In this document: in pieces, positions 49,133 through 63,682 of the stretch
Layout of the letters: each line of letters opens with the position of its first letter
Numbering within the stretch: the stretch's first letter is position 1
Assembly: GCA_963666985.2 (NCBI GenBank)
Contig: CAXXIA010000002.1
Coordinates: 1,728,001 to 1,792,000, forward strand
Source: Spirochaetia bacterium
Lineage (GTDB): Bacteria > Spirochaetota > Spirochaetia > DSM-2461
DNA length: 64,000 nucleotides
Direction of reading: 5' to 3'
Position numbers and translations under genes: made by a program
Notes under the pieces: generated by a model
What the model saw: the letters and a program-made list of their open reading frames with translations, nothing else
What the model was told of the DNA's origin: nothing
Databases searched by the model: none

Positions 49133-49966
49133 TCACGAATTCGTATCATCCAACGGGGATCTGACTTGCTTCAAGATTTCATCAGTCATATGCGTATACA
49201 TCATTGTTGTTTTCAGGTTTGAATGGCCCAACTGGCTTTGAATAACCCGAACGTCTGTTCCTCGTTCCAATAGATGTGTGGCAAAAGAATGCCTTAATGT
49301 ATGACAGGAAGCTTTTTTTCTTATCCCTACGTGTCCTTTGGCCTTTTCGAAAGCGGCCTGTACTGATCTAATTTGATATCTTCGTCCGCTTCTGGTTGTA
49401 AAAAGCGGGTCCTTTCCGTTTCTTTCTCCGATGATTGAGGATAATTCAGGGATTAATGTATGTGGGAGAACGACATAACGATCCTTTGCTCCCTTTCCAC
49501 GCTTAACATGAATCCGTCCATATTCTAAATCAAGATCACCAATATTAAGAGCAACTAATTCACCGACCCGCAGACCTGATCCGTATAATAGTGCAAGCAT
49601 GAGCCGATGCTTCCTGTTGTTAACAGCGTCCAGTAGTTTTACAACTTCTGTTGGGGTTAAAACGGCCGGTAAGGATCTAGATCGCTTTCTTCGAAGAGAA
49701 AAAACTTCTAGCGGCATCCTTAAGTAATCATGATAAAAGAATTTAAGTGCAGCAAATGCCATTTCACGACTTGCCTCTTTATCTTCAAAAGACTCAAGAA
49801 AATACCGAACTTTTTCTTCTCTCCCTAAATTCCGTCGAGATATTGTAAACTCAAGATAACGGGACAACATTTGTGTATAAGCCTTAATTGTCCGCTCAGA
49901 ATAGCCCCTAATCACAAGTTCTCTTTTATAGTTGTTGATAAGTGATTCCTTGGATATGATCTTCAT
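49133..49966 (-). CDS. Tyrosine recombinase, putative cassette integrase (atypical: no IntI-specific insertion)
   Basis: GLRVGE, GKGAKDR, HTLRHSFATHLL, LGH, TMMYTH; N-terminal RGYSERTIKAY. Confidence 0.92.
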   Translation of the reverse strand: MKIISKESLINNYKRELVIRGYSERTIKAYTQMLSRYLEFTISRRNLGREEKVRYFLESFEDKEASREMAFAALKFFYHDYLRMPLEVFSLRRKRSRSLPAVLTPTEVVKLLDAVNNRKHRLMLALLYGSGLRVGELVALNIGDLDLEYGRIHVKRGKGAKDRYVVLPHTLIPELSSIIGERNGKDPLFTTRSGRRYQIRSVQAAFEKAKGHVGIRKKASCHTLRHSFATHLLERGTDVRVIQSQLGHSNLKTTMMYTHMTDEILKQVRSPLDDTNS

Positions 49967-49968
49967 AT

Positions 49969-50060
49969 GCGTTATAACGCTTTGTTAGCTCATTTTTCTT
50001 GATAAGAGACTAATTAAAAGATGATTAATGTATCGAGTTAGCATCTATGATGAGTTATAA
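49969..50060 (+). other. attI-like site; core GTTATAA at 50054-50060
   Basis: GTTATAAGCCATTTT is the reverse complement of the end of cassette 1 (51201-51215), and no attC precedes it; GAGTTA is repeated at 50035 and 50052. Confidence 0.75.
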
Positions 50061-50268
50061 GCCATTTTTCTGTATAGATTTATATGTAACAAATAAGAAT
50101 AACAAATAGCGCCAGATGGATTATTCGCAAAAGGAGAACGCGCGATAGCTATAAGGCGGTCCTTGAAGTATACTAAGTATACAGAAATTGCTTCTCTTCA
50201 CACTTCATTTGGCATTTACTCTCTTCTGAGTTGAGGAGATTACGATTTTGAACAAAGGAGGAGTGAAA

Positions 50269-51162
50269 ATGAGGATCGGGACGTTCAATGTAGAGAATCT
50301 ATTTGCGAGGTATAGATTTAACAGCAACTTTGATCCGATTAATAGCGATGGATTTTCAATAAATAATCTTGCTTTTAGCATTAACGATGAAACTGCAAAA
50401 CAAATAACCGCAAAGGCAATACGAGAAGTAGATGCTGATATCTTAGCATTACAGGAAGTTGATAATCTAAAAGTTCTTGATCGATTTGTTTCAAGCTATC
50501 TTGCAAAAGAAAAGTATAAGCATCGGATATTGATTGATGCATTTGATCCAAGAAATATCGATGTTGCACTCATTTCTAGATATCCAATTAAGAATGTAAA
50601 AACTTATAGGTCTGAAAGAAATAGATCAAATACTGCGAGTCTTTTCTCAAGAGATTGTCTTGAGGTTGTGATTGATGCTGAAGGAAAAGAATTGACGGTA
50701 TATGTTAATCATTTCAAATCAATGTTAGGTGGTCGTGATAATACTTTTACTAGGAGAAAAGAACAAGTTGAAAAAGTTGCTGAAATTATAAAGGAAGCAT
50801 GGCAGATAAAGAACTACGAAGGCAACTATGCAGTAGTCGGTGATTTTAATGATTATTTAGAAGGCCGGACCTCGCTGACTGATTTGATTACACATCCAGG
50901 ATTGAAGAATGTCAGTGAACGTATTTTAGAATCAGAAAGATGGACTCACTTTTGGGCCGGTGGCAATGAATATAGACAATTAGATTTCATACTACTATCC
51001 CCTCAGTTGGCCGAAATAAATAATAATGCTCCAGACATAATGAGAATGGGGCTTCCTTATCGAGCCGAAAAATATTCTGGAGATCGGTTTGATTTCGTTG
51101 GAGAAAACACTCCAAAGGCGTCTGATCATTGTCCTATTGTCATGGATATAGAATTAGTTTAG
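50269..51162 (+). CDS. Cassette 1: endonuclease/exonuclease/phosphatase family protein
   Basis: TFNVENLF, LQEV, NHFKS, GDFND, LDFIL, SDHCP; SD GGAGG. Confidence 0.9.
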   Translation: MRIGTFNVENLFARYRFNSNFDPINSDGFSINNLAFSINDETAKQITAKAIREVDADILALQEVDNLKVLDRFVSSYLAKEKYKHRILIDAFDPRNIDVALISRYPIKNVKTYRSERNRSNTASLFSRDCLEVVIDAEGKELTVYVNHFKSMLGGRDNTFTRRKEQVEKVAEIIKEAWQIKNYEGNYAVVGDFNDYLEGRTSLTDLITHPGLKNVSERILESERWTHFWAGGNEYRQLDFILLSPQLAEINNNAPDIMRMGLPYRAEKYSGDRFDFVGENTPKASDHCPIVMDIELV

Positions 51163-51208
51163 ATCGTAAAAGGAATTAGGATAGGTAATACTACTCAGAC
51201 AAAATGGC

Positions 51209-51426
51209 TTATAACAGCTGTTGATGCGCTCCGGCCGCTAAAAGTGTTTAGCGGCCTCCGGGGCTTCGCCCAAATTTCGTTTTGGCATGGCGTCTTGCAG
51301 ATGCAGATCCAGAAGTGATGTGATACAGTCAAAGGCGAACATGGTGTTGCTGTAGAAGAGCAAGAGCACATGCCAACCGGCTTTCAGCCGGACACGAAAC
51401 GTTCGCATAACAGCGGGCCGTTAATT
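51209..51426 (+). repeat. attC-like site 1 (218 bp, type A)
   Basis: TTATAAC-AGCTGTTGATGCG...CGCATAACAGCGGGCC-GTTAATT. Confidence 0.9.
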
Positions 51427-51468
51427 GCAATATCGAGGACTCCGTTTTATAGAAAGGAGTTGAATGAC

Positions 51469-52203
51469 GTGAAAAACAAAATCTTGATCGCTTCAATAAT
51501 AGCAGTTCTATGTTTCCCTTTTGTGATCTATCTAACTAGATTTCCTGGACTATACTCTGCTAACTCGGTGGAATGGGGAATCTTCGGAACGTTTATTGGT
51601 GGACTACTATCATCAATTTTCGCTGGTTTGAGTTTTATTGTAGTCTTACTTGTATATTGGCGCTCAAATGAGGATAGAAAGAATCGAGAGTCGCGCGAAA
51701 CAGTTCTTAAACTGCTGGAAGAGCTAAGTAATAGATATAAGAAAATTGTGATTAGAATTGAAGATACTGCTCAGATCGGAGAAATGGTATTTTCCTATTT
51801 TAATAGTAGTGCTTTTCAGCTTTATAAATTGTACCAAGACTATCTTAAAAACAAAGAAAATGAAAACCTTAAGGGACAGGTTAAGGCGCAAGCCTTACAG
51901 ATGGTCTTCTCAATCAATACAATACGCGAGTATCTACGATTTGTTGTTCTTACTTATCGATACATTGTGAATAAGTCAATTGAGAAAGAATTTCTTTCAA
52001 TACTATCAGCAAGACTTACAGAACAAGAGATGATAGCTCTTTCTATTTTGTTGTATGACGAAATTGAAGCTGATGACAATTTGTTTAGCTATTTAAAGAA
52101 TATGAAATACGGACCAATCGAAGGCTATGCTGCAATCGGAAGAAGTCTTACAGATGCCTTAAAGCTGAATTCTCCGGAACTACCATCAAATTTGAGTTTA
52201 TGA
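51469..52203 (+). CDS. Cassette 2: membrane protein resembling putative abortive-infection (putAbiC-like) proteins
   Basis: Two TMs with WGIFGTFIGG; C-terminal ILSARLTEQE; GTG start after AAGGAG. Confidence 0.55.
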   Translation: MKNKILIASIIAVLCFPFVIYLTRFPGLYSANSVEWGIFGTFIGGLLSSIFAGLSFIVVLLVYWRSNEDRKNRESRETVLKLLEELSNRYKKIVIRIEDTAQIGEMVFSYFNSSAFQLYKLYQDYLKNKENENLKGQVKAQALQMVFSINTIREYLRFVVLTYRYIVNKSIEKEFLSILSARLTEQEMIALSILLYDEIEADDNLFSYLKNMKYGPIEGYAAIGRSLTDALKLNSPELPSNLSL

Positions 52204-52268
52204 TTAGGAATTATTGATTTACATGGAGAAGCGAGAATAATTGCTGGTTAGAAATGAAACGATACTGC

Positions 52269-52476
52269 AATTAACAGCTGTTGATGCGCTCCGGCCGCTA
52301 AAAGTGTTTAGCGGCCTCCGGGGCTTCGCCCAAATTTGCCTCTGTCATAGATTTTGCGAATGTCTGGCACTGTGGTAAGATGAGTTGCGGTTAGCGGTTG
52401 AGGTTGTGAAGAATCGCAAAATCTCCGCCAGTCGCTACGCGAACGGCAAACTTCGCATACCAGCGGACCGTTATTT
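52269..52476 (+). repeat. attC-like site 2 (208 bp, type B)
   Basis: AATTAAC-AGCTGTTGATGCG...CGCATACCAGCGGACC-GTTATTT. Confidence 0.9.
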
Positions 52477-52530
52477 GCAAGAATGAATGACGATTTCTCC
52501 TCGCCCATCCATGGGCTCGGTGGTTAGAAG

Positions 52531-53760
52531 ATGTCAAAATATAAGAAACGAGACAAATACCAGCAGCTATATGAGTTTTTAAAAGCAAAAGAAAGCAGAT
52601 CCGAGTCATTCACTGTTGAAGAAATAATAACCGCGACAGGTTATCAAGAAGGATCCGTAAAGGCATATATTCGAAACAAGCTCAATAATGTTTATCTATT
52701 CTTAATAGATGATAGTCACTATCAAGTTTCAGGAATTGCATCAAAGACACCTGATGATTTTGAATCGATTATGTCGCAAAAAAGCGATTTGGTTGTGTCA
52801 GACTCAGAAAGCCTATTTACAAGCCTTAGGGATCGTAGTCTTCAAGCGTTTTATACTGCAATATCTGTATATAACAATCCCTTGCATGAATATAGGATAG
52901 AATCCTTTTGTATTCTTTTATCAAATGCATGGGAACTTTTACTCAAGGCTAGAATTGTTCAACTGGAAGGTGAAGATAAAATATACAAATCAAAAGGGAA
53001 GACAATTTCGTTAACAGAAGCCTATCGTAAAGTCTTTCCACGTTCATCTGATCCTATTCACAAAAACTTAGAAACACTTACCGAGATTCGAGATTCAGCA
53101 GTACATCTACTTATTCCGGATATTCAACATTCTTTATCTCGTATATTTCAAGCTAGCATTTTTAATTTTCTTTCAAAGGTAAGAGAATACAAATATCCAA
53201 ATAAGTACCATAGCGATTTACCAGGTCTCTTATCTTTTGTTACAGATAAACAAGACGTTCCTGAAAATGTAATACGTCTAAAGTATGGAACCTATGCAAG
53301 TGGACTAATAAAAGAATTTATTGAAAAGAATACCTCACGCGAATCCGAAGTTTCCGATATGCGTTATTCAATACCAATCGACTACAAGGTAGTTCTGACA
53401 AAAAGTGAAAAGGAAGGAGATTTATCTATCCGTATAGATAAGGATGGAGAACCCGCCATACTGGTAGAAAAACCCAAGGATGTTAATAAAACGCATCCCT
53501 ATCTTCAGAAAAATGTAATAGAAGCCGTGAATCAAGGTCTCGATGATGTCGGTCGGTCTCAATACCATCTCAACCGATATTCGTTTCGTGGAGCTCTCGA
53601 AGTTGAAAAAGTTAGGAGAACACAATCCAATAAATTCTATCATTTATTAGAAAATCCGGAAGTTCATAAGTACTCACAAGCATTTATAGATCTTCTTCTC
53701 CACAAACTTTCAAACAGTGATAGTTACCTACAGTTGTGTAAAAAAGCTTTGAAAAAATAG
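52531..53760 (+). CDS. Cassette 3: DUF3644-like (HEPN-type) protein
   Basis: AISVYNNP..RIESFCILLSNAWELLLKA; Rx4H motif RDSAVH. Confidence 0.75.
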   Translation: MSKYKKRDKYQQLYEFLKAKESRSESFTVEEIITATGYQEGSVKAYIRNKLNNVYLFLIDDSHYQVSGIASKTPDDFESIMSQKSDLVVSDSESLFTSLRDRSLQAFYTAISVYNNPLHEYRIESFCILLSNAWELLLKARIVQLEGEDKIYKSKGKTISLTEAYRKVFPRSSDPIHKNLETLTEIRDSAVHLLIPDIQHSLSRIFQASIFNFLSKVREYKYPNKYHSDLPGLLSFVTDKQDVPENVIRLKYGTYASGLIKEFIEKNTSRESEVSDMRYSIPIDYKVVLTKSEKEGDLSIRIDKDGEPAILVEKPKDVNKTHPYLQKNVIEAVNQGLDDVGRSQYHLNRYSFRGALEVEKVRRTQSNKFYHLLENPEVHKYSQAFIDLLLHKLSNSDSYLQLCKKALKK

Positions 53761-53821
53761 AAGTGGCCTGAAAGTACATCCTTGTACTTTCAGGGAGACT
53801 TATCCATCTCGTCATTCCTGC

Positions 53822-54039
53822 AAATAACAGCTGTTGATGCGCTTCGAATACATTTGCAGGCAAATGTATTCTCCGGGCCTTCGGCCAAATTTCGTTTTGG
53901 CATGGCATCTTGCAGATGCGTTTTCGAAAGTGATGTGATACAGTCAAAGGAGAACATGGCATTGCGTTAGAAGGGCAAGAGCGCATGCCAACCGGCTTCG
54001 CCGGACACGAAACGTTCGCATAACAGCGGGCCGTTTGGC
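53822..54039 (+). repeat. attC-like site 3 (218 bp, type A, variant first hairpin)
   Basis: AAATAAC-AGCTG...CGCATAACAGCGGGCC-GTTTGGC. Confidence 0.9.
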
Positions 54040-54096
54040 GAAATCTGTTTTAGAAAAATATTTTTTTGCCTCACCTTCCATGGTTCGGCTTTGTTC

Positions 54097-54381
54097 TCAC
54101 CTGTAGGCGCTACTTCGGGGTTCGAGAGAAATAATACTGACAATTCTAACGGCGTCATCGATTACATAGAAAAGTCTATAGTTACCAATTCGATACCGCC
54201 ACGTTTCTGGTTTCCAGTCTTTCAACTTTTTGATGTTTTTTCCGAAATAGGGGTTTTTGCGTAATTGGTCGTAGACCATGCCTGAAATCTTTCTGTATTG
54301 TGATGAACTTCCATTCATTCGTAGCTTTTTTAGATCTTTAAGAAATTGATCCGTTTCAAAAATTTTAAATCGTTCAGACAA
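54097..54381 (-). CDS. Cassette 4: RelE/ParE family toxin
   Basis: F.KDLKKL..NPY..KKLK..WRYRIGNYRLFY..R..AYR. Confidence 0.9.
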   Translation of the reverse strand: MSERFKIFETDQFLKDLKKLRMNGSSSQYRKISGMVYDQLRKNPYFGKNIKKLKDWKPETWRYRIGNYRLFYVIDDAVRIVSIISLEPRSSAYR

Positions 54382-54613
54382 ATCGACCTCTACCGTTCTT
54401 AGCGTCTTTGGTTCCCTGCTTCATTCGTTTTAAAAGGCTTTCATCAGAGAGGATGCTTTCCATTTCGAAATCGTCGGCATATTCAACCTCTTCGATGTAT
54501 CTCATTGTTGCAGTCTCGATAAAATTTGAAATCGAACGATTCTCAGCATCGGCATGGACTTTTAAGGAATCGTAGAGTTCTTCATCAATTCGTAGAGAAA
54601 CAGTTTTGGTCAT
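54374..54613 (-). CDS. Cassette 4: ribbon-helix-helix antitoxin
   Basis: KTVSLRIDEE..NRSISNFI; acidic; overlaps the toxin start. Confidence 0.85.
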   Translation of the reverse strand: MTKTVSLRIDEELYDSLKVHADAENRSISNFIETATMRYIEEVEYADDFEMESILSDESLLKRMKQGTKDAKNGRGRFV

Positions 54614-54627
54614 ATCATTATCCCCTC

Positions 54628-54684
54628 TATGAATACATTGTATTCATATGTGTTTAAATTAGTTCATAGCGTTATTGAAGTCAA
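54628..54684 (-). promoter_or_regulatory. TA promoter (TTGACT-17-TAATTT) and operator palindrome
   Basis: -35 at 54679-54684; perfect IR TATGAATACA-T-TGTATTCATA at 54628-54648. Confidence 0.7.
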
Positions 54685-54755
54685 TAGGGCGATTTTAGAG
54701 GTCTCCCAAGTACATCCTTGTACTTGGAAGAGTGGTAAAACACCAAACAGACTTC

Positions 54756-55027
54756 GCCAAACAGCTGTTGATGCGCGGCGGCCGCTAATGGGATTAGCGG
54801 CCTTGGGCCGAGCGATGGAAAACCAAGAGCTTTTAAATTTCTGTTGAAGGGAAAAATCAAATTGGTTCGGCTCGGCCAAATTTCGCTTTGGCCATGGTTC
54901 TTGCAGATGCGTTTCTAAAAGTGGTGTGATAAGCTGAAGAGCGAACGGGCTTTCTGTTAAAGTGCAAGAACGCATGCCAACCGGCTTCGCCGGACGCGAA
55001 ACTTCGCATACCAGCGGAACGTTTAAC
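54756..55027 (+). repeat. attC-like site 4 (272 bp, type A with expanded second arm)
   Basis: GCCAAAC-AGCTG...CGCATACCAGCGGAAC-GTTTAAC. Confidence 0.88.
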
Positions 55028-55155
55028 GAAAAAATCAGAAGGCCTTTTCCATGCCGCCTTTCTTGGTGCCATGAATAGGAATATTCAATTTCCTAAAAGA
55101 ATTAATGGTAATAATGTATAGTTAGTAATCCTGTAGTGATAACGAAGAGTAGAAA

Positions 55156-55860
55156 ATGGAAAACATAATCAAAATACTCGGTGAGCATCCAACTGCTGTT
55201 ATTGCAGATGCTGCTTTTAAGATTGGAGCAACAGTTCGTCTTCTTCCTTCAAATCTATACTCTCTTAAGCCAGATGCACGATTAATCGGTAAAGTTACAA
55301 CCGTTAAATGCAATAACGATTTGGTCTCTATTCTCGAGGGGCTTATGCGTGCAGAGAGTGGAGATGTTTTACTAATCGACAATAATGGTTTCTCAGGGGC
55401 AGGTTGTATCGGAGATGTCATCGTTTCGGAAGCTGTTCGTAAGAAAATCTCTGGGATTGTTGTCTATGGATCCATTAGAGATAGCCAGCAAATCTCTACG
55501 ATGGAAATTTCTGTGTTCTGTACTGGAAAATGTTCTGTTGGGCCATTGAAGCTACCTGGGCAGCAGTCGAAAAATGGTCTTGTTAACGTAGTCTTGGAAA
55601 TAGAGGGAACTTCTATAAAACCTGGAGATATTCTTATTGGCGATGTTGATGGTGTAATTGTTGTAGAAACCGATCGCCTTGATGAAATTATTAGCAAAGC
55701 AGAAGAAATTGAACATAAAGAAGAGACTTTAATGAAAAGAATCGAGTCAGGAGAAAGTCTTACAGACATATTTGGGGTTAAGAAGTTCTTAGAGAAAAGA
55801 GAAGGGGATCCAGAGTATTTATTCAATTCTCATTTGGCAGAACAGAATGAAACGATTTGA
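55156..55860 (+). CDS. Cassette 5: RraA family/HMG aldolase-like protein
   Basis: T..IADA, GDVLLID, GCIGD, GSIRDS, PGDILIGDVDGVIVV. Confidence 0.88.
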   Translation: MENIIKILGEHPTAVIADAAFKIGATVRLLPSNLYSLKPDARLIGKVTTVKCNNDLVSILEGLMRAESGDVLLIDNNGFSGAGCIGDVIVSEAVRKKISGIVVYGSIRDSQQISTMEISVFCTGKCSVGPLKLPGQQSKNGLVNVVLEIEGTSIKPGDILIGDVDGVIVVETDRLDEIISKAEEIEHKEETLMKRIESGESLTDIFGVKKFLEKREGDPEYLFNSHLAEQNETI

Positions 55861-55931
55861 TTCAGTGAAAGGTGAGCCAATAAGTGATTAGATAGAGGTA
55901 TTTTCTATTTGGCATTTTTAGGGATTTCTTC

Positions 55932-56208
55932 GTTAAACAGCTGTTGATGCGCGTCGGCCGCTAAAGGTGTTTAGCGGCCTTGGGCCGAGCGATGGGTATT
56001 GGTTAAGTTTTATTATTTTTGAAGAAGAAGAGAAAATCAGATTGAATCGGCTCGGCCAAATTTCGCTTTGTCATGGCTCTTGCAGATGCGTTTCCGAAAG
56101 TGATGTGATACCATCAAAGGCGAACAATGAATTGCTGTAGAAGAGCAAGAGCGCATGCCAACCGGCTTCGCCGGCCGCGAAACTTCGCATACCAGCGGGC
56201 CGTTAAAG
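55932..56208 (+). repeat. attC-like site 5 (277 bp, type A with expanded second arm)
   Basis: GTTAAAC-AGCTG...CGCATACCAGCGGGCC-GTTAAAG. Confidence 0.88.
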
Positions 56209-57047
56209 GAAATTCGGACGACGGAATAAAAAAGGTCTCTTTTTTGAGGGTTTTTTTCTGTGGCAGCCTCATTCCCTTCATTTGAACAAGTAACAAAAAC
56301 AGAATCCCTTTGAGTGTTCAGATTTTTTTAACAGGCCTTCCTTCTCTTTGAACGAAACAGGTCGTTTTCATACGGCTTTCTCCTCACCCCCCTCGCCTTT
56401 GAGATCATCTTCAAGAAAGAAACCAAAAGCATCGGAATAAAACTCGCTTCGGGATCAGAAGCACTTAGTGATAAGGCGGTCGGTTCGGGAGAACTTGTGT
56501 CGTGAAGGTTTATGGTTTTTAACGATTATGGGAATCGCTCATGAGAAAATCCTTATCCGTTGATGGCTATCGCTTCGGGAAATGAGGCGCTTCCGGTTTG
56601 ATCGGTTCGCGAGAAAAGGGGTGGTAGCCTGAGAAGAATGAAGGGATGGAGATGAGAAGAATGGAGATTGTTTTCTCCGTAGTTTTGCCTTTGAGAATAA
56701 GGCTGAATGCTTTAAGAGAATACCGGTGTAGAAGGAGAAGACGAACATTCGGATTTACAGAATCCGTCCTGAGAGAAAGAGGTCGGGAAAGGCGAATTGC
56801 ATCGGATGAAGGCCTGAGTAAAGTGATGAGGCGATGAAAGGGAGAATAGGGGTCAGTACGAGAGAATGGATAGAAATTCCGTTAAATGAGTAAAAAGCGG
56901 AAGAGGGAAGTCTGTAAAAGGATGAATGAAGAAAAGATGAGAAGGAGAAGGGCAAGAAGAATCGAAACAAAGGGTCCGGCAAAACGGCGAGGAGGGGTGA
57001 GGAGAAGGAGAGGTCTTTATAGATGCGTCGTCCGAACTTCCTTTAAC
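56202..57047. other. Cassette 6: apparently non-coding cassette
   Basis: Ends are complementary over 21/22 nt; only unconvincing ORFs of 75 aa or less. Confidence 0.7.
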
Positions 57048-57248
57048 AGCTGTTGATGCGCTTCGGCCGCTAAAGGTGTTTAGCGGCCTGCGGGGCTTCG
57101 CCCAAATTTGCCTCTGTCATAGATTTTGCTTAAGTCTGTCGCTATGGTAAGATGAGTTGTAGTTAGCGGTTGATGTTGTGAAGATTCGCAAAATCTCCGC
57201 CAGTCGCTACGCGAACGGCAAACTTCGCATACCAGCGGGCCGTTATGT
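57041..57248 (+). repeat. attC-like site 6 (208 bp, type B)
   Basis: CTTTAAC-AGCTG...CGCATACCAGCGGGCC-GTTATGT. Confidence 0.9.
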
Positions 57249-57298
57249 GCTTTTTCGTTTTTCCAGTTAATAACATTAATTGCCATAAGGAGGGAGAA

Positions 57299-57751
57299 AT
57301 GGGCATCAATTATCAATTAAAAGCAGAAAAAGGCAAAATCGAAGATGAATTAAATTCCGCAATTAACAGGCTTATTTCTGGCTGCGAAAAGCTTGATATG
57401 GCTTTAGCTTTCGAAATCTTCTCAGATTCATCTGAGTTCTTGATGATGGGAACGGATGGAAGCCTTTGTGATTATCAGACTTACTTGAAAAACAATATCG
57501 ACTATTTATCCGGTTGTGAAAGTTTTAAGTTGATAACGTTTGATCGAAAAATACGAATCATAAACAGTGAGGTAGCCATCTTTTCATGGGCTTATGGGGT
57601 TGAGGCAAAATTAAGAACGGGAGATATTGATATTATTGATAATGCAGGAGCTTCTTTTGTCTTCCGAAAAATAGAGAATACATGGAAGGTTGTATATTAT
57701 CATGAGTCATCAGTACCTCCGAAAAGAAACTCTCCACCAAGAGAATCATGA
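57299..57751 (+). CDS. Cassette 7a: NTF2/SnoaL-like protein
   Basis: C-terminal SFVFRK..WKVVYYHES; SD GGAGG before ATG 57299. Confidence 0.75.
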   Translation: MGINYQLKAEKGKIEDELNSAINRLISGCEKLDMALAFEIFSDSSEFLMMGTDGSLCDYQTYLKNNIDYLSGCESFKLITFDRKIRIINSEVAIFSWAYGVEAKLRTGDIDIIDNAGASFVFRKIENTWKVVYYHESSVPPKRNSPPRES

Positions 57752-57845
57752 CGATTGAAATCCAAGTGTAAATAAGGGATTACACAGAACGTCGCGCAAG
57801 TATCGCTTTCTGTTGCTGTTTATAGTTATGTCGGAATCAGAATAT

Positions 57846-58334
57846 ATGGAAAATAAAATAGTAATAGATAAAAAAATCCAGCCGGGCGATTTGGGCTCTA
57901 TAGTGGAATTGCATGGCAAATATTACAGCAAGCATTTTGGCTATAACATAACCTTTGAACCATATGTTGCTTTACCTCTTGCGAAGTTTATACTTCGGGC
58001 CAGTGAGAATGAACAGATTTGGATAGTTCGACAAAACGGAATCGTTCGGGGGAGTATCGCTATTGCGAAGAAGAAAGCAAAAACTGCGCAGTTGAGATGG
58101 TTTATCCTTGATGGAAGTCTCCAAGGAAAAGGCATTGGAAATCAACTAATGAGATTCTCTATTGATTTTGCAAGAGAAAAAGGATTTTACAAGCTGATTC
58201 TCTGGACGGTAAGGGATCTAAAAAGTGCGATTCATCTGTACGAAAAGAATCTTTTTTTGCTTAAGAAAGAAGTTTCCCACAAGATTTGGGGGGTGGAATT
58301 GACGGAACAACTCTATGAATTGAAGTTGAAATAG
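57846..58334 (+). CDS. Cassette 7b: GNAT acetyltransferase
   Basis: AQLRWF..QGKGIG, LWTV..AIHLYEK. Confidence 0.88.
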   Translation: MENKIVIDKKIQPGDLGSIVELHGKYYSKHFGYNITFEPYVALPLAKFILRASENEQIWIVRQNGIVRGSIAIAKKKAKTAQLRWFILDGSLQGKGIGNQLMRFSIDFAREKGFYKLILWTVRDLKSAIHLYEKNLFLLKKEVSHKIWGVELTEQLYELKLK

Positions 58335-58400
58335 GGTTAATTCCGAATACTCTGTTTAAGAAGATGAACTCTCAATAAAGATAGATATGAGGGAAAAAGC

Positions 58401-58609
58401 ACATAACAGCTGTTGATGCGCTCCGGCCGCTAAATAGTGTTTAGCGGCCTTCGGGGCTTCGCCCAAATTTGCCTCTGTCACAGATTTTGCGAATGTCTGG
58501 TGTTGTGGTAAGATGATTTGCAGTTGACGGTTAATGTTGTGAAGAATCGCAAAATCTCTGCCAGTCGCTGCGCGAACGGCAAACTTCGCATACCAGCGGG
58601 CCGTTAAGT
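58401..58609 (+). repeat. attC-like site 7 (209 bp, type B)
   Basis: ACATAAC-AGCTG...CGCATACCAGCGGGCC-GTTAAGT. Confidence 0.9.
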
Positions 58610-58841
58610 GTATTATTGGAGGCATTTTGAAGAAATTATGGATTCTGTTTCTTTTTCCATTTCTTCTGGGATGTGTGACTCGTGCAGATGAAAAGTATAA
58701 AGGAACTATCTACGATCCTGGTATTGAGGAACCCATATCGTTGCATCCCTTTTACTTCTCACATGCACTTGCAGAGGCAATTTGGAATTCCCAGCTTTTG
58801 ATAGACACTGCTAAACTCAAAATGAGGAAGGAGTGTACATC

Positions 58842-59129
58842 ATGGGAAGTCCGCGATATTCGGACGAATTCAAGGCAGAAGCAGTCGGCCAGGTTGTTGA
58901 GCGGGGCTACTCCATCAAGGAAGTCTCTGAGCGTATAGGAGTCTCAACCCATAGCCTCTATAAGTGGCTGAAGGCCGATTCTCGAAATCCAAAAGCACCA
59001 GAATCGGCAAAAGCAAATAAGGAGCTTGAAGTCGAGAATGCCAGGCTGAAAGCAGAGCTGCGGCGGGTGCAGGAAGAGCGAGATATCTTAAAAAAAGCCG
59101 CGGCATACTTCGCGAGTCAGTCCGAGTAA
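58842..59129 (+). CDS. IS3-family transposase OrfA
   Basis: RYSDEFKAEAV..HTH..EERDILKKAAAYFA. Confidence 0.92.
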   Translation: MGSPRYSDEFKAEAVGQVVERGYSIKEVSERIGVSTHSLYKWLKADSRNPKAPESAKANKELEVENARLKAELRRVQEERDILKKAAAYFASQSE

Positions 59130-59167
59130 GATATGCCTTCATCAAAAACTACAGGGCTGAATTCAGA

Positions 59168-59986
59168 GTGAAGACTATGTGCCGGGTTCTCGATGTCAAT
59201 CGAAGCGGATTCTATGCATGGTTGAGAAAACCTCAATCAGAGAGAAAGATTGAAGACATTCGGTTGTTGAAGAAGATTCGCCACTTCTACGAAGAAAGCG
59301 ATCAGGTCTACGGAAGTCCACGAATCCATGAGGATTTGATGGAAGACGGAGAATCCTGCAGCGTCCATCGAGTAGCCAGAATCATGCGAGAGCATGGTAT
59401 CAGGGCGATGGTCGGCTTCAAGATGCGTCGATTCAAGTATGGAAAACCGTCCCAGGCTGCCCCGAACCATCTCCAGCAGGACTTTAATGTAGAAGAACCC
59501 GATACTGCGTGGACAACGGATATTACCTATATTCGAACTCATGAAGGTTGGCTGTATCTCGCAGTTGTCATGGATCTTTATTCCAGGAGAATCATCGGCT
59601 GGTCCATGCAGAACACGCTTCATCGTGATCTGGTTATCCAGGCCTTACTGACAGCTGTTTGGAAGAGACGCCCGAAAAACAAAGTCCTTATCCATTCCGA
59701 TCAGGGCGGCCAATTTGACAGCGGTGACTGGATTAGATTCTGTCGTGACAACGGACTGAAGAGAAGTATGAGCCGTCGTGGAAACTGCTGGGACAATGCA
59801 GCCATGGAATCATTCTTTGGTAGTTTGAAGAAGGAACGGATTCGCCGGAAGACATATCGAACAAGGGATGAAGCACGGTCTGATGTGTTCGATTATATTG
59901 AAGCATTTTACAACCGGAAGCGTCGCCACAAGCATCTTGGCGGGATCTCTCCGGTTGAATTTGAAAAGGGTTCTATTGCAAGCTAG
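59168..59986 (+). CDS. IS3-family transposase OrfB (DDE)
   Basis: YGSPRI, WTTDITYI, HSDQG, DNAAMESFF. Confidence 0.94.
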   Translation: MKTMCRVLDVNRSGFYAWLRKPQSERKIEDIRLLKKIRHFYEESDQVYGSPRIHEDLMEDGESCSVHRVARIMREHGIRAMVGFKMRRFKYGKPSQAAPNHLQQDFNVEEPDTAWTTDITYIRTHEGWLYLAVVMDLYSRRIIGWSMQNTLHRDLVIQALLTAVWKRRPKNKVLIHSDQGGQFDSGDWIRFCRDNGLKRSMSRRGNCWDNAAMESFFGSLKKERIRRKTYRTRDEARSDVFDYIEAFYNRKRRHKHLGGISPVEFEKGSIAS

Positions 59987-60335
59987 AGGTGTCTATAGAA
60001 GTCTGGGAATTCCAATTCATCTTAATTTCAATTTTCCAGATGCGTTTACTACGAAAGATATTGCTGAGTTGTATGGAAGACTCTACTATCACGCGCAGAA
60101 TGTTGAGGGTGTAACTATCCAAATAGATTCATACCCAGAAAAGCGAAGTCTTTTTATTAATATGAAACCAATTGTAATAGAAAACTATAGGCAATTTGGT
60201 AAAAGAGATAAGCTTGAATCACTTGGATACTTCTTTTGGTTCAATGTTGAGCAAGATCGCACACTAAAAGGAAAATATGTACCAGTGAACCACCCCGGCT
60301 TTACCGGAGGCACAATTACTTGAGAGGATTGTGTC

Positions 60336-60656
60336 ATGGGAAAGCAAACAAGGTACCCCAAGGAAGTCCGGGAACAATCTGTCCGGATGGTGTTTGAGAA
60401 GCAGAAGGACAGCGAATCTCAGTGGTCGGCGATTTGTTCAATATCCGCTAAGATCGGCTGTACACCCGAAACACTCCGGAAATGGGTTCGGCAGGCAGAA
60501 ATCGATGAAGGGCAGCGGGATGGTCTAACCAGTGAAGAGCGTAAGCGTCTTAAAGAGCTGGAAAAGGAGAATCGAGAACTTCGTACTGCCAACGAAATTC
60601 TTCGAAAGGCCTCAGCGTATTTTGCCCAGGCGGAGCTCGACCGCCGAAAGAACTGA
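60336..60656 (+). CDS. IS3-family transposase OrfA
   Basis: KIGCTPETLRKWVRQAE..ANEILRKASAYFAQAELDR. Confidence 0.93.
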   Translation: MGKQTRYPKEVREQSVRMVFEKQKDSESQWSAICSISAKIGCTPETLRKWVRQAEIDEGQRDGLTSEERKRLKELEKENRELRTANEILRKASAYFAQAELDRRKN

Positions 60657-61567
60657 TGGTCGGTTTTATCAATGAGAACCGGGAAGAATATGGAGTCGAG
60701 CCTATCTGCAAATCACTGCCGATTGCTCCGTCGACCTATCATCTACAAAAAGCAAGAGAAGCTGATCCTGAACTCGAACCTGATCGAACACGTCGAGACC
60801 GGTTTCTTAAAAATGAGATTCAGGAGATATGGGATGAGAACCGTAGAGTCTACGGCGCCAGGAAAGTCTGGAAGGTTCTTAGAAATGAGAAGCATCTCCA
60901 TGTAGCCAGGTGTACCGTCGAACGTCTTATGCGTTCTATGGGTCTCAGAGGCGTCATTCGGGGCAAGGGAACCAAGACCACCTTCCCGTCACCGAAAGAT
61001 GAAAGACCCGAGGATCTGGTTAACAGAGATTTCACAGCTTCCAAGCCGAATCGGCTTTGGGTTGCGGATTTCACCTACGTTTCCACCTGGCAGGGCTTCG
61101 TCTATGTTGCCTTCATCATTGATGTCTTCTCCCGGATGATCGTCGGTTGGCGAGCTAGCCGGTCGATGAAAACCGACTTTACTCTTGATGCGCTCAATCA
61201 GGCGCTTTGGGCCAGGGAAGTAGTCGACGGTCTGATTCATCACAGTGATCGTGGAAGGCAGTATCTTTCGTTTCGATATTCGGATCGATTGACAGAGGCC
61301 GGTATCGAGCCTTCGGTTGGGAGCAAAGGAGACTCGTACGATAACGCAATGGCTGAGACTATCAACGGTCTCTACAAAGCCGAAGTCATCCACCGGAGGA
61401 GCTCATGGCAGAGAATAGAACAGGTTGAATTGGAAACCCTGGACTGGGTGGACTGGTACAACAACCGCCGAATCATGGAGCCGCTTGGAGATATCCCCCC
61501 GGCGAAGTTTGAATCGATGTATTATGAACAGGAAGAATGTTCGGCAGTAGCTGCCGGACTCAACTAA
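60656..61567 (+). CDS. IS3-family transposase OrfB (DDE)
   Basis: YGARKVW, WVADFTYV, HHSDRG, DNAMAETING. Confidence 0.94.
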   Translation: MVGFINENREEYGVEPICKSLPIAPSTYHLQKAREADPELEPDRTRRDRFLKNEIQEIWDENRRVYGARKVWKVLRNEKHLHVARCTVERLMRSMGLRGVIRGKGTKTTFPSPKDERPEDLVNRDFTASKPNRLWVADFTYVSTWQGFVYVAFIIDVFSRMIVGWRASRSMKTDFTLDALNQALWAREVVDGLIHHSDRGRQYLSFRYSDRLTEAGIEPSVGSKGDSYDNAMAETINGLYKAEVIHRRSSWQRIEQVELETLDWVDWYNNRRIMEPLGDIPPAKFESMYYEQEECSAVAAGLN

Positions 61568-62067
61568 AACAGCCTCCGGGAATCCCGGTGTGGTTCACAG
61601 AGATGTTTGCCCGAACAAATGTGATGACGGCAAATACTTCCTGCTATACGTATAAGTATTTAGAATCAGGTTCACTGTATCGGTATCGGTCTAATGTTGA
61701 TTATACGATTACTGAGTGGAATGACGATATGTTGAATGCTGAGAATTGCATATTTGATGGAATCCCCAATAATAATGAACTTGCTCTTAAGTATATAGCA
61801 ACCGCAATTAAAAGAGCTGAGGAGATACCGGAGTTACAAAGAGGAAGATATCTGTATATTGTTTTGTACGGTAAACTTCTAGAATGTGAGTATAATATTT
61901 TGGTTGGACAATTCGATGAAGCTAGAGAATTACTAGAAGAATCTATTCTTACATTTGAGGAAAATAGTGAAATTATACGCTATAAGGAAGTTATAAAAAA
62001 CTGTATTGAACACGCTGAGATCGTGTTATTGCTAACAGAATTTCTAATGCCATATTATCAATAATAC

Positions 62068-62279
62068 ACTTAACAGCTGTTGATGCGCTCCGGCCGCTAA
62101 AGGTGTTTAGCGGCCTTCGGGGCTCCGCCCAAATTTCGTTTTGGCGATGGCTCTTGCAGATGCGTTTTTAGAAGTTGTGTGATAAGTTGAAGAGCGAACA
62201 GGCTTTCTGCTAAAAGCAAGAGCACATGCCAACCGGCTACGCCGGACACGAAACTTCGCATACCAGCGGGCCGTTAGGT
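62068..62279 (+). repeat. attC-like site 8 (212 bp, type A)
   Basis: ACTTAAC-AGCTG...CGCATACCAGCGGGCC-GTTAGGT. Confidence 0.9.
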
Positions 62280-62319
62280 GATTTGCAAATGAGATACAAT
62301 TAGATCAAAGGAGAGCGCC

Positions 62320-63456
62320 TTGGGCCCTGTAGTACTTCTGGATAAGTCTACCTACCAATGCCTCAGTTCTGATGAACTACTTTGTCTAGAAAGATACTAT
62401 TTCCTCAATTTGCCTCCAATACTCCTTTACGAAATAATTACAGATCTATCGAAAAAGTCTGGAAGAGATTCAGAAGAAGTTACTTCACGGCTTGCTGCAA
62501 AATTCACTCAAATGAGTAGTTACGCTAACGATGAGTATCGGATAGTACTCCGTTTATCACTTCTTGGAAGGCCGGTGCCAATGACACGTCAGGTTCTCAT
62601 TGCCGGTGGAGAGAAAATCAAAGACGAAGAAGGGAAGGTCGGGATTTTTCTAGATGAACCTCCTGAATTTAAGGCATTACGAGAATGGGAGAATAAAAAC
62701 TTTTCAGAGTTTGATAGAATCTTTGCAACAGCATTCAGAAAGTATAAAGATAGCTTCGATTTCGAATTGATTACGAAGAAAGATTCAGACTTCAAAAAAA
62801 TATGGAGCGAAGTCAATTCACTGGAAGATGCCCATGATAGCGCTGTTTTACATATTGATAACAAAGAGAATACAGCTCAGATGCTTGAATGGGCTATGTC
62901 GAGTATCAATCTCTCAAGCTTAGAGAAAAGTGCGGTTCGCAAACTGTGGAGTGTTAAAGGAAAACCGAATCTTTCTGACTTCTCACCTTATGCAAGATTT
63001 TGCATGATTGCGTCATTAACAGCGTTCATAGGAATCAGTAAAGGACTATTAGGCTCTAGGTCTTCAAACATGATAGATCTCGAATACCTTTATTATTTAC
63101 CTTTTTGCTCCATTTTTTCTTCAAATGACAAATTTCAACTACAACTAGCACCATTATTGATTGGAGATGATCAATACATCGTTTCGGGTGATGTTCTCAA
63201 AGATGATTTAGCAAAAATAATCACATATTTCTCAGGATTCACGAAAGAAGATCATGTTGCTTATCGAAAGCATAGAGGCAGCCACCCTCCTGAAATCGCA
63301 GACTCGTTTACTTTGAGTGTATGGGAGACGCTATGCTCGCCAGTAGATCCAGAGGCAGAAGAAAGGTTACAGAACACCCCACATGACGAGATTCTGAAGA
63401 AGATAAAGCCAATACTGGAAGCAATTAAGAAGCAAGAACAGAATCGGGGAAACTAG
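62320..63456 (+). CDS. Cassette 9: hypothetical protein, possible PIN-like nuclease
   Basis: N-terminal VLLDKS; later D..YL.YLPFC.IFSSND; SD AAGGAG, TTG start. Confidence 0.6.
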   Translation: MGPVVLLDKSTYQCLSSDELLCLERYYFLNLPPILLYEIITDLSKKSGRDSEEVTSRLAAKFTQMSSYANDEYRIVLRLSLLGRPVPMTRQVLIAGGEKIKDEEGKVGIFLDEPPEFKALREWENKNFSEFDRIFATAFRKYKDSFDFELITKKDSDFKKIWSEVNSLEDAHDSAVLHIDNKENTAQMLEWAMSSINLSSLEKSAVRKLWSVKGKPNLSDFSPYARFCMIASLTAFIGISKGLLGSRSSNMIDLEYLYYLPFCSIFSSNDKFQLQLAPLLIGDDQYIVSGDVLKDDLAKIITYFSGFTKEDHVAYRKHRGSHPPEIADSFTLSVWETLCSPVDPEAEERLQNTPHDEILKKIKPILEAIKKQEQNRGN

Positions 63457-63473
63457 TTAAATACGAGCAAATC

Positions 63474-63682
63474 ACCTAACAGCTGTTGATGCGCTCCGGC
63501 GTCAACTTGCGTTGCCGCCTCCGGGGCTTCGCCCAAATTTGCCTCTGTCATAGATTTTGCGGAAGGCTGGCGGCTGTGATAGGATGGCTTTCAGTAATCG
63601 GCCGATGTTGTTCTGTCTGGCAAAATCTACACCAGTCGCCTTCGGCGAACGGCAAACTTCGCATAACAGCAGAACGTTTAAT
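63474..63682 (+). repeat. attC-like site 9 (209 bp, type B, variant first hairpin)
   Basis: ACCTAAC-AGCTG...CGCATAACAGCAGAAC-GTTTAAT. Confidence 0.88.

What the first reader, a model, noticed from the sequence alone, without database searches (positions are those of the whole stretch)
51420..57047. Identical position-11 mismatch in five consecutive, unrelated cassettes
Seen: in cassettes 2-6 the only mismatch in the terminal stem is base 11 from the G of GTT. It is always A at the start against C at the end (GTTAATTGCAa, GTTATTTGCAa, GTTTGGCGAAa, GTTTAACGAAa, GTTAAAGGAAa). Cassettes 1, 7, 8 and 9 pair at this position. Inference: the mismatch gives A:C on the top strand but a G:T wobble on the bottom strand. 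It could be a strand-selection or protein-contact determinant outside the R box, or a footprint of cassette genesis.
Basis: partly seen in the sequence, partly recalled or inferred. Interest (0 to 1): 0.8.

Follow-up and report, generated by a model that had tools for sequence, protein, structure and literature searches.

The report
Wobble-marked gene-cassette recombination hairpins
The odd base pair at the ends of these swappable gene cassettes is a real, conserved mark of an integron-like system whose recombinase lacks the protein piece that textbook integrons use to pick a DNA strand, and it most likely tells this simpler enzyme which folded strand to cut.

Summary
Confirmed, and wider than reported. 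The window holds the head of a 158-kb cassette array. Each cassette's two ends pair over a median 16 bp. Position 11 is A against C (G•T on the bottom strand) in 33 of 59 non-redundant cassettes, against 9 mismatches in 354 neighbouring positions. Arrays beside related integrases show it in 52 of 59 cassettes; canonical-IntI arrays of the same class in 1 of 103. A second G•T sits at position 11 of the opposite (L) arm, beyond extruded hairpins: 67 of 79 sites here, 73 of 81 in relatives. The adjacent 277-aa recombinase lacks the IntI I2 insertion and is the only IntI-like gene in the assembly. Best reading (inferred, 0.62): the symmetric wobbles lie in each monomer's Xer-length binding arm and mark the bottom-strand hairpin. 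Against: 26 of 59 cassettes here lack the R-arm wobble, and no activity was shown. Ten literature searches found no description. This scan noted the same mark earlier in phage and Clostridia arrays (unchecked notes).

The parts
49133..49966 (-). Short (277 aa) integron-integrase-like tyrosine recombinase without the IntI I2 insertion, divergent from the array
   Evidence: ORF; TIGR02249 220 bits, below cut-off 265, in two stretches; aligns to VchIntIA in two pieces with about 43 aa missing; catalytic R133, K158, H222, R225, H248, Y257 invariant in 51 homologues; segment 163-222 is 60 aa against 102-103 in canonical IntI
50037..50066 (+). Putative attI: left arm, 4-nt spacer, GTT at 50054 (presumed crossover)
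   Evidence: First GTT pairs with the end of cassette 1 over 15 bp; left arm at a 4-nt spacer has G at position 8 as in 7 related array heads. Inferred.
50054..51215 (+). Cassette 1 (exo/endonuclease/phosphatase family gene); ends pair normally at position 11; second copy further down the array
51420..52275 (+). Cassette 2 (ORF without family hit); A51430 against C52265
52470..53828 (+). Cassette 3 (DUF3644 / PDC-S19 candidate defence gene); A52480 against C53818
54033..54762 (+). Cassette 4 (ParE/RelE-like and RHH toxin-antitoxin pair on the minus strand); A54043 against C54752
55021..55938 (+). Cassette 5 (RraA-like/aldolase gene); A55031 against C55928
56202..57047 (+). Cassette 6 (no ORF over 69 aa; multi-copy in the array); A56212 against C57037; 22-bp terminal stem
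52273..52472 (+). Example attC body (200 nt): 4-nt left spacer, L'' with one bulged base, two extruded hairpins, L-arm wobble (A52334 against C52451), 8-nt right spacer
51213..51422 (+). attC body of cassette 1 (variant with one extra base in L')
53826..54035 (+). attC body of cassette 3 (variant with one extra base in L')
54760..55023 (+). attC body of cassette 4 (long type, 264 nt, enlarged second extruded hairpin)
55936..56204 (+). attC body of cassette 5 (long type, 269 nt)
57045..57244 (+). attC body of cassette 6
57242..58407 (+). Cassette 7 (SnoaL-like and GNAT genes); pairs normally at position 11
58603..62074 (+). Cassette 8, interrupted by two insertion-sequence-like ORF pairs; pairs normally at position 11
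62273..63480 (+). Cassette 9 (378-aa ORF without family hit); pairs normally at position 11; the array continues to about window coordinate 207,800

Best explanation
The mismatch is one of a symmetric pair of G•T wobbles in the folded bottom strand of a non-canonical attC site, serving an integron-type recombinase that lacks the I2 insertion. SHOWN: in the excised-circle form the bottom strand can fold into a 16-bp R arm, an asymmetric centre (4 nt against 8 nt), an 8-bp L arm, a junction with extruded hairpins, and a further stem; both arms read GTT-like triplet, four bases, G at 8, and G•T at 11, in mirror orientation. INFERRED: each arm is the binding site of one monomer, about 11-12 bp long as for Xer enzymes, so position 11 lies under the outer helix (residues 199-213, with family-specific R200). 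On the bottom strand the site offers a T in a wobble pair; on the top strand the same position is an A:C mismatch without that T. A paired position can differ between the two strands' hairpins only in this way, so the wobble would let an enzyme without I2 pockets prefer the bottom strand and insert cassettes in one orientation. In this genome's attC subfamily the R-arm wobble is favoured but optional, while the L-arm wobble is nearly fixed.
For: Position- and polarity-specific in 33 of 59 cassettes here and 87 of 96 in 18 arrays of 16 other genomes. With one pipeline that does not select on the stem beyond position 7: 52 of 59 beside short integrases, 1 of 103 beside canonical IntI, five genomes contributing to both sets. 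L-arm G11 faces T in 67 of 79 bodies here and in 73 of 73 relatives' bodies where a partner was found (8 of 81 without), while neighbouring pairs covary; that partner is not adjacent to L'' in double-stranded DNA, so it only makes sense in the folded strand. In relatives both bases are fixed separately (A at start 92 of 96, C at end 90 of 96) while positions 13-15 use all four normal pairs. A bulged base is optional (10 of 81). R200 in 17 of 17 short and 0 of 12 canonical integrases. XerH covers 10-11 bp per arm and reads an outer-arm thymine through its outer helix, which sets cleavage order (PMC5241119, passages and section 8). No canonical IntI in this assembly.
Against: 26 of 59 cassettes here pair normally at R-arm position 11, yet sit throughout the array with no clear link to position (p = 0.74) or copy number (9 of 33 against 4 of 26 multi-copy). 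The attI left arm has T or A, not a wobble, at 11. No binding, cleavage, excision or circle was observed; contig joints were uninformative. No protein-DNA model was made; the R200 contact is by analogy. 13 of 30 short-integrase hits gave no scored array in the DNA fetched, one flank (L162) held a canonical-geometry array without the wobble, and many relatives also encode a canonical IntI elsewhere. attC bodies and cassettes share ancestry, so counts overstate independence.
Confidence: 0.62

Rival explanations
1. Purely thermodynamic strand bias: G•T stabilises the bottom hairpin and A:C weakens the top one, with no protein reading, as proposed for scattered G:T pairs in canonical attC sites.
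For: Bottom strand folds more stably in 53 of 59 circle junctions (median -56.9 against -53.9 kcal/mol). Other stem mismatches in relatives also lean to bottom-strand G•T (20 against 5). Canonical sites average 1.24 G:T on the bottom and 0.39 on the top strand (PMC5027507, passages).
Against: Cassettes with and without the R-arm wobble have the same bottom-minus-top energy gap (-4.2 against -4.1, p = 0.37) and the outer arm is predicted paired on both strands (0.94 and 0.95). Stability alone does not explain one fixed position in two mirror arms.
Confidence: 0.13
2. Two separate sequence constraints that happen to meet: A at position 11 is needed when the cassette start forms the double-stranded right arm of attI, and C at the end either blocks use of the end as a double-stranded site or lets ends pair with any neighbour's start in the array.
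For: A at the start is the more conserved base (92 of 96; 4 face T instead of G on the bottom strand). In the array form A-start with C-end is the commonest neighbour junction (40 of 83). The left simple site has the same 4-nt spacer as attI.
Against: It does not explain the L-arm partner, which exists only in the fold (73 of 73). Here, when the end has another base the start matches it in 24 of 24, so the start is not simply fixed as A.
Confidence: 0.12
3. Footprint of cassette genesis or site-specific C-to-T deamination of an exposed base in the single-stranded intermediate, selectively neutral.
For: The change has the polarity of C-to-T on the bottom strand; G-C at 11 is rare (2 of 59, 2 of 96); cassette-specific 16-bp self-complementary ends suggest one end is copied from the other (non-self pairs mismatch 55-76% at positions 12-16).
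Against: Deamination of random pairs would leave most cassettes with A-T, T-A or C-G at 11; relatives have 2 of 96. No multi-copy cassette group here is polymorphic at 11 (10 groups). Sequence context varies, so no methylase motif fits.
Confidence: 0.08
4. Founder effect: all ends descend from one ancestral site that carried the mismatch.
For: attC bodies within this array are clearly one family.
Against: Kept across integrases only 36-46% identical to this one, across unrelated attC bodies of 66-319 nt, in two different stems, while flanking pairs turned over with compensation.
Confidence: 0.05

Closest known systems
Sedentary chromosomal integrons with canonical IntI (VchIntIA, PDB 2a3v; IntI1) and attC sites
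   Same: Divergent integrase gene, attI-like head, long array of promoterless cassettes bounded by GTT and AAC, hairpin sites with R and L arms favouring the bottom strand, toxin-antitoxin and defence-like cargo; best sequence and fold match is VchIntIA.
   Different: Integrase lacks about 42 aa covering I2 and the long beta-4/5 hairpin; spacers 4 and 8 nt instead of 5 and 5-7; R arm about 16 bp instead of 8-9; fixed G8 and G•T11 in both arms; bulged base optional; extruded hairpins inside the L arm.
Xer recombinases and dif sites (XerH-difH, XerA, XerC/D)
   Same: Insert-less catalytic domain; NF040815 224.6 bits, just over its cut-off of 220; putative attI has two arms around a 6-bp centre, like difH (PMC5241119); outer-arm thymine as an asymmetry signal in difH.
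   Different: The genome has its own XerC/D-like pair elsewhere; this enzyme sits at the head of a cassette array, is closer to IntI, and its partner sites are hairpins.
G:T skew of canonical attC bottom strands (PMC5027507)
   Same: G:T on the bottom strand, C:A on the top, proposed to favour the bottom strand.
   Different: There it is a statistical excess (1.24 against 0.39 per site) with no fixed position in the passages read; here it is one position, mirrored in both arms, and absent from canonical arrays of the same class (1 of 103).
Integron-like tyrosine-recombinase subgroup (PMC8138268)
   Same: [quoted passage not shown]
   Different: Calls the insertion essential for integron function; the passages read describe no arrays or sites for insert-less members.

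Membership tests
Canonical integron (IntI/attI/attC) | Tyrosine recombinase with intact catalytic residues next to the array | tested here: met
   R133, K158, H222, R225, H248, Y257; ORF ends 88 bp from the first GTT region
Canonical integron (IntI/attI/attC) | IntI-specific insertion with the I2 helix | tested here: not met
   60 aa against 102-103 aa in the matching segment; TIGR02249 below cut-off; gap against 2a3v
Canonical integron (IntI/attI/attC) | Cassettes bounded by complementary GTT / AAC cores, in a tandem array of one orientation | tested here: met
   80 of 85 cassettes match at positions 1-7
Canonical integron (IntI/attI/attC) | attC geometry: 5-nt and 5-7-nt spacers, two or three single extrahelical bases on the R''-L'' arm | tested here: not met
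   Spacers 4 and 8 nt in 79 of 79 bodies as parsed; single bulge in all bodies here but 10 of 81 in relatives; second feature is a hairpin extrusion
Canonical integron (IntI/attI/attC) | Bottom strand folds preferentially | tested here: met
   Predicted only: lower energy in 53 of 59
Canonical integron (IntI/attI/attC) | attI site and cassette promoter at the array head | tested here: inconclusive
   attI-like arm pair found; no sigma-70-like promoter in 49800-50300
Canonical integron (IntI/attI/attC) | Single-strand exchange at the R' box with replicative resolution | not testable with these tools
   Needs recombination assays; contig joints uninformative
Xer/dif chromosome-dimer resolution | Insert-less catalytic domain and two arms around a 6-bp centre | tested here: met
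   (centre length inferred from the presumed crossover)
Xer/dif chromosome-dimer resolution | Housekeeping enzyme acting on one double-stranded dif site | tested here: not met
   Separate XerC/D-like genes on contig C1; patchy distribution, 78 of 401 genomes at E <= 1e-36; lies beside a cassette array

The most novel reading that the evidence does not exclude
A second, widespread class of integron exists in which an I2-less recombinase recombines folded single-stranded cassette sites and reads strand and orientation from a mirror-symmetric pair of G•T wobbles at arm position 11, one of them across a hairpin-extruding junction, instead of from extrahelical bases. Single-strand recombination would then not depend on I2, and these systems could resemble the state before I2 was acquired.
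Probability: 0.5. Interest if true: 0.9.

Novelty: new variant of a known kind. Interest (0 to 1): 0.76.

Why it matters
The standing model holds that integron integrases gained single-strand recombination through the I2 helix, which docks extrahelical bases and blocks the second strand exchange (PMC7790495, passages). A 158-kb array whose only candidate enzyme lacks I2, with a different fixed strand mark, makes that model directly testable: two base changes per site and one residue. It also gives a simple signature (4/8 spacers, G8, G•T11, 16-bp self-complementary ends) for finding large cassette pools that I2-based profiles would score as having no integrase, and the cassette-specific long stems constrain how cassettes are made. 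This genome's subfamily, with the R-arm wobble in only 56% of cassettes, supplies natural variants for the assay.

Tried and rejected
Assembly or sequencing error: rejected (probable source sample). Chance: rejected. A general property of integron cassettes: rejected. R-arm wobble as main source of fold bias: not supported. Link of the wobble to copy number or array position: none seen. Idea that a bulged base replaces the wobble: not supported, 8 of 9 relatives' cassettes with a bulged body keep it. First geometry filter demanded a bulge and found only 15 cassettes; replaced. Exact 17-mer scan of genome contigs: 96 hits, 4 with a cassette stem that I accepted, plus one short locus that looked related. 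The search for related loci with the single protein found nothing. Looking for excision in contigs: joints fall in repeated attC sequence and cannot be read as events; no RNA holder listed. Promoter scan at the head: none. Rfam: only an ALIL element in an insertion sequence. Literature: 10 minus 1 = 9 full-text searches were run; none listed a paper on position-fixed wobbles or on arrays run by I2-less integrases; the library lacks most subscription papers, and no supplements were read, so alignments in supplements (for example of PMC8138268, PMC8352920) could bear on novelty.
Full report
Observation. The window is the head of an array of about 158 kb and 40% GC in a 51% GC genome. I found 88 starts and 85 cassettes with both ends, dropped 5 whose positions 1-7 did not match, and kept 59 non-redundant ones. 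Position 11 is mismatched in 33 of 59, always A against C; positions 8-10 and 12-14 together in 9 of 354 (p = 1.4e-24; 30 of 56 and 21 of 40 under stricter de-duplication). Stems have a median of 16 bp (12-22) and are cassette-specific, since non-self pairs mismatch 55-76% at positions 12-16. Contigs of the probable source run match cassettes 1-5 without a difference.

Host and enzyme. Named records that share the attC motif and cassette stems are Spirochaetaceae, Marispirochaeta and Spirochaeta, so the host is most likely a spirochaete (inference). The gene at 49133-49966 encodes a 277-aa tyrosine recombinase with intact catalytic residues. Its best solved match by sequence and by predicted fold is VchIntIA, but it scores below the TIGR02249 cut-off and its segment 163-222 is 60 aa against 102-103 aa in 12 canonical integrases of the same class. 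The assembly (93% complete) holds no canonical IntI. An unrooted tree separates 18 short from 13 canonical proteins at 100/100; two rows were truncated and there was no outgroup.

Anatomy of the site. Between cassettes lie bodies of 191-269 nt: AAC, 4-nt spacer, L'', two hairpins, a variable part, L', 8-nt spacer, GTT. Read on the bottom strand, L' and the cassette end give the same pattern: triplet, four bases, G at 8, G at 11. L' positions 1-8 pair with L''; positions 9-17 pair with a segment beyond the extruded hairpins, and there G11 faces T in 67 of 79 bodies (10 have one extra base in L', 2 were mis-assigned by my best-match rule). So the folded bottom strand has two wobbles in mirror orientation. 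The base just inside each R triplet is also A against C in 79 of 79 bodies here and 80 of 81 in relatives, followed by a pyrimidine-rich 4-nt loop-out; in canonical arrays that combination was 21 of 103 by a looser count. The array head has a left arm at a 4-nt spacer with G at 8, as do 7 related heads; two heads beside longer integrases lacked it. With the crossover between G and TT (recalled for integrons) this gives a 6-bp centre like difH.

Relatives and control. I fetched DNA around 30 insert-less integrase hits; 17 gave a scored array, and one named locus added another. In these 18 arrays of 16 genomes position 11 is mismatched in 92 of 96 cassettes, 87 as A against C; orientation was set from spacer geometry, and ORF direction agreed in 109 of 119. 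The L-arm wobble is present in 73 of 73 bodies with a partner, 8 of 81 having none; a bulged base occurs in 10 of 81. Because that set was chosen on stem match, I reran both classes with one pipeline that needs only L-arm geometry and positions 1-7: 52 of 59 cassettes at 12 short-integrase loci have A against C, and 1 of 103 at 18 canonical-IntI loci, where pairing ends at positions 8-9; no 4/8-type array was found in 40 canonical loci; five genomes are in both sets. One exception: flank L162 held 11 canonical-geometry cassettes without the wobble, probably the far end of that genome's canonical array (not resolved). This genome's lower rate may be a trait of its attC subfamily: 4 of 6 such cassettes in other genomes have the wobble (small sample).

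Mechanism. Shown: the conserved fold, the two wobbles, their tie to the short integrase. Inferred: each arm binds one monomer over about 11-12 bp. XerH covers 10-11 bp per arm, puts its outer helix in the major groove, and reads an outer thymine that sets cleavage order (PMC5241119, passages and section 8). The matching helix here (199-213) carries R200 in 17 of 17 short and 0 of 12 canonical enzymes. Top- and bottom-strand hairpins are alike at every normal pair; at a wobble the bottom shows G•T and the top A:C. Canonical integrases choose the strand through extrahelical bases docked partly by I2 (PMC3053210, PMC2727003, PMC5027507, PMC7790495; passages). I therefore favour the wobbles, together with the asymmetric centre and extruded hairpins, as the strand mark read by an enzyme without I2 (0.62). 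How it avoids the second strand exchange is unknown.

Results against. 26 of 59 cassettes here pair at R-arm position 11 and are spread through the array, so that wobble is not required in this lineage. It does not change the predicted bottom-minus-top energy gap (p = 0.37), which weakens the thermodynamic rival but also shows nothing about protein contact. The attI left arm has no such feature. No excision, circle or expression was seen. Kin are not independent, so the p-values overstate.

Comparison and novelty. It works like an integron (inference from layout) but fails two defining tests, I2 and attC geometry, so I file it as a new variant, not a member. Nine full-text searches (the summary's 'ten' should read nine) listed no paper on this mark. 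[quoted passage not shown] I also read passages of PMC3607928, PMC8352920 and PMC9892861, which describe canonical systems; no supplements were read. Earlier notes of this scan report the same position-11 wobble in phage and Clostridia arrays and I2-less arrays in other phyla; they are unchecked and not counted as support, and their strand-marking reading matches mine.

Verdict. Real, non-random, conserved. New variant of a known kind; interest 0.76.

Noticed in passing
window 56202-57047 and copies at 106404, 107449, 142640, 176190 (window coordinates extended along contig C2): An 845-bp cassette with no ORF over 69 aa and a purine-rich top strand occurs in at least five full copies, plus one interrupted copy.
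   Followed up: partly
window-extended 69751, 73980, 104174, 105905, 168547, 177294, 177794, 186501: A 242-245-bp cassette with no ORF over 32 aa is present in 8 copies with intact ends; possibly a promoter or non-coding cassette.
   Followed up: no
window 52273-52282 and every attC body of this array: The end triplet, 4-nt spacer and L'' triplet form a perfect 10-bp palindrome in 78 of 79 bodies; this subfamily may have the relaxed R-arm wobble.
   Followed up: partly
window 54760-55023, 55936-56204: A long attC type (260-269 nt) in which the second extruded hairpin grows to about 70 nt with a variable tip.
   Followed up: no
window 58833-61567: Two insertion-sequence-like ORF pairs inside cassette 8, one with an ALIL pseudoknot; IS3-family by recalled features.
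   Followed up: no
window-extended 70249, 82862, 91818, 110793, 127889, 137266, 149948, 158104, 205528: Several cassettes have the same short sequence starting 17-27 bases after their GTT, just past the stem, and are longer than usual: probably an insertion element that targets the start of cassettes (table).
   Followed up: no
window 52531-53760: Cassette 3 gene matches PADLOC PDC-S19 (E 5.5e-68) and DUF3644: candidate anti-phage gene.
   Followed up: no
G015, G045, G185, G201, G249: These genomes carry both a canonical-IntI array and a wobble-type array with separate site geometries; G015 has three wobble-type arrays.
   Followed up: partly
L138, L139, L140, L141, L142, L146: A sub-branch of insert-less integrases is 340-365 aa with an N-terminal extension, and some have the array downstream of the gene; their cassettes carry the same wobble.
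   Followed up: no
window-extended 185135-186296: Cassette 1 has an identical-ended second copy deep in the array, consistent with past duplication into attI.
   Followed up: no
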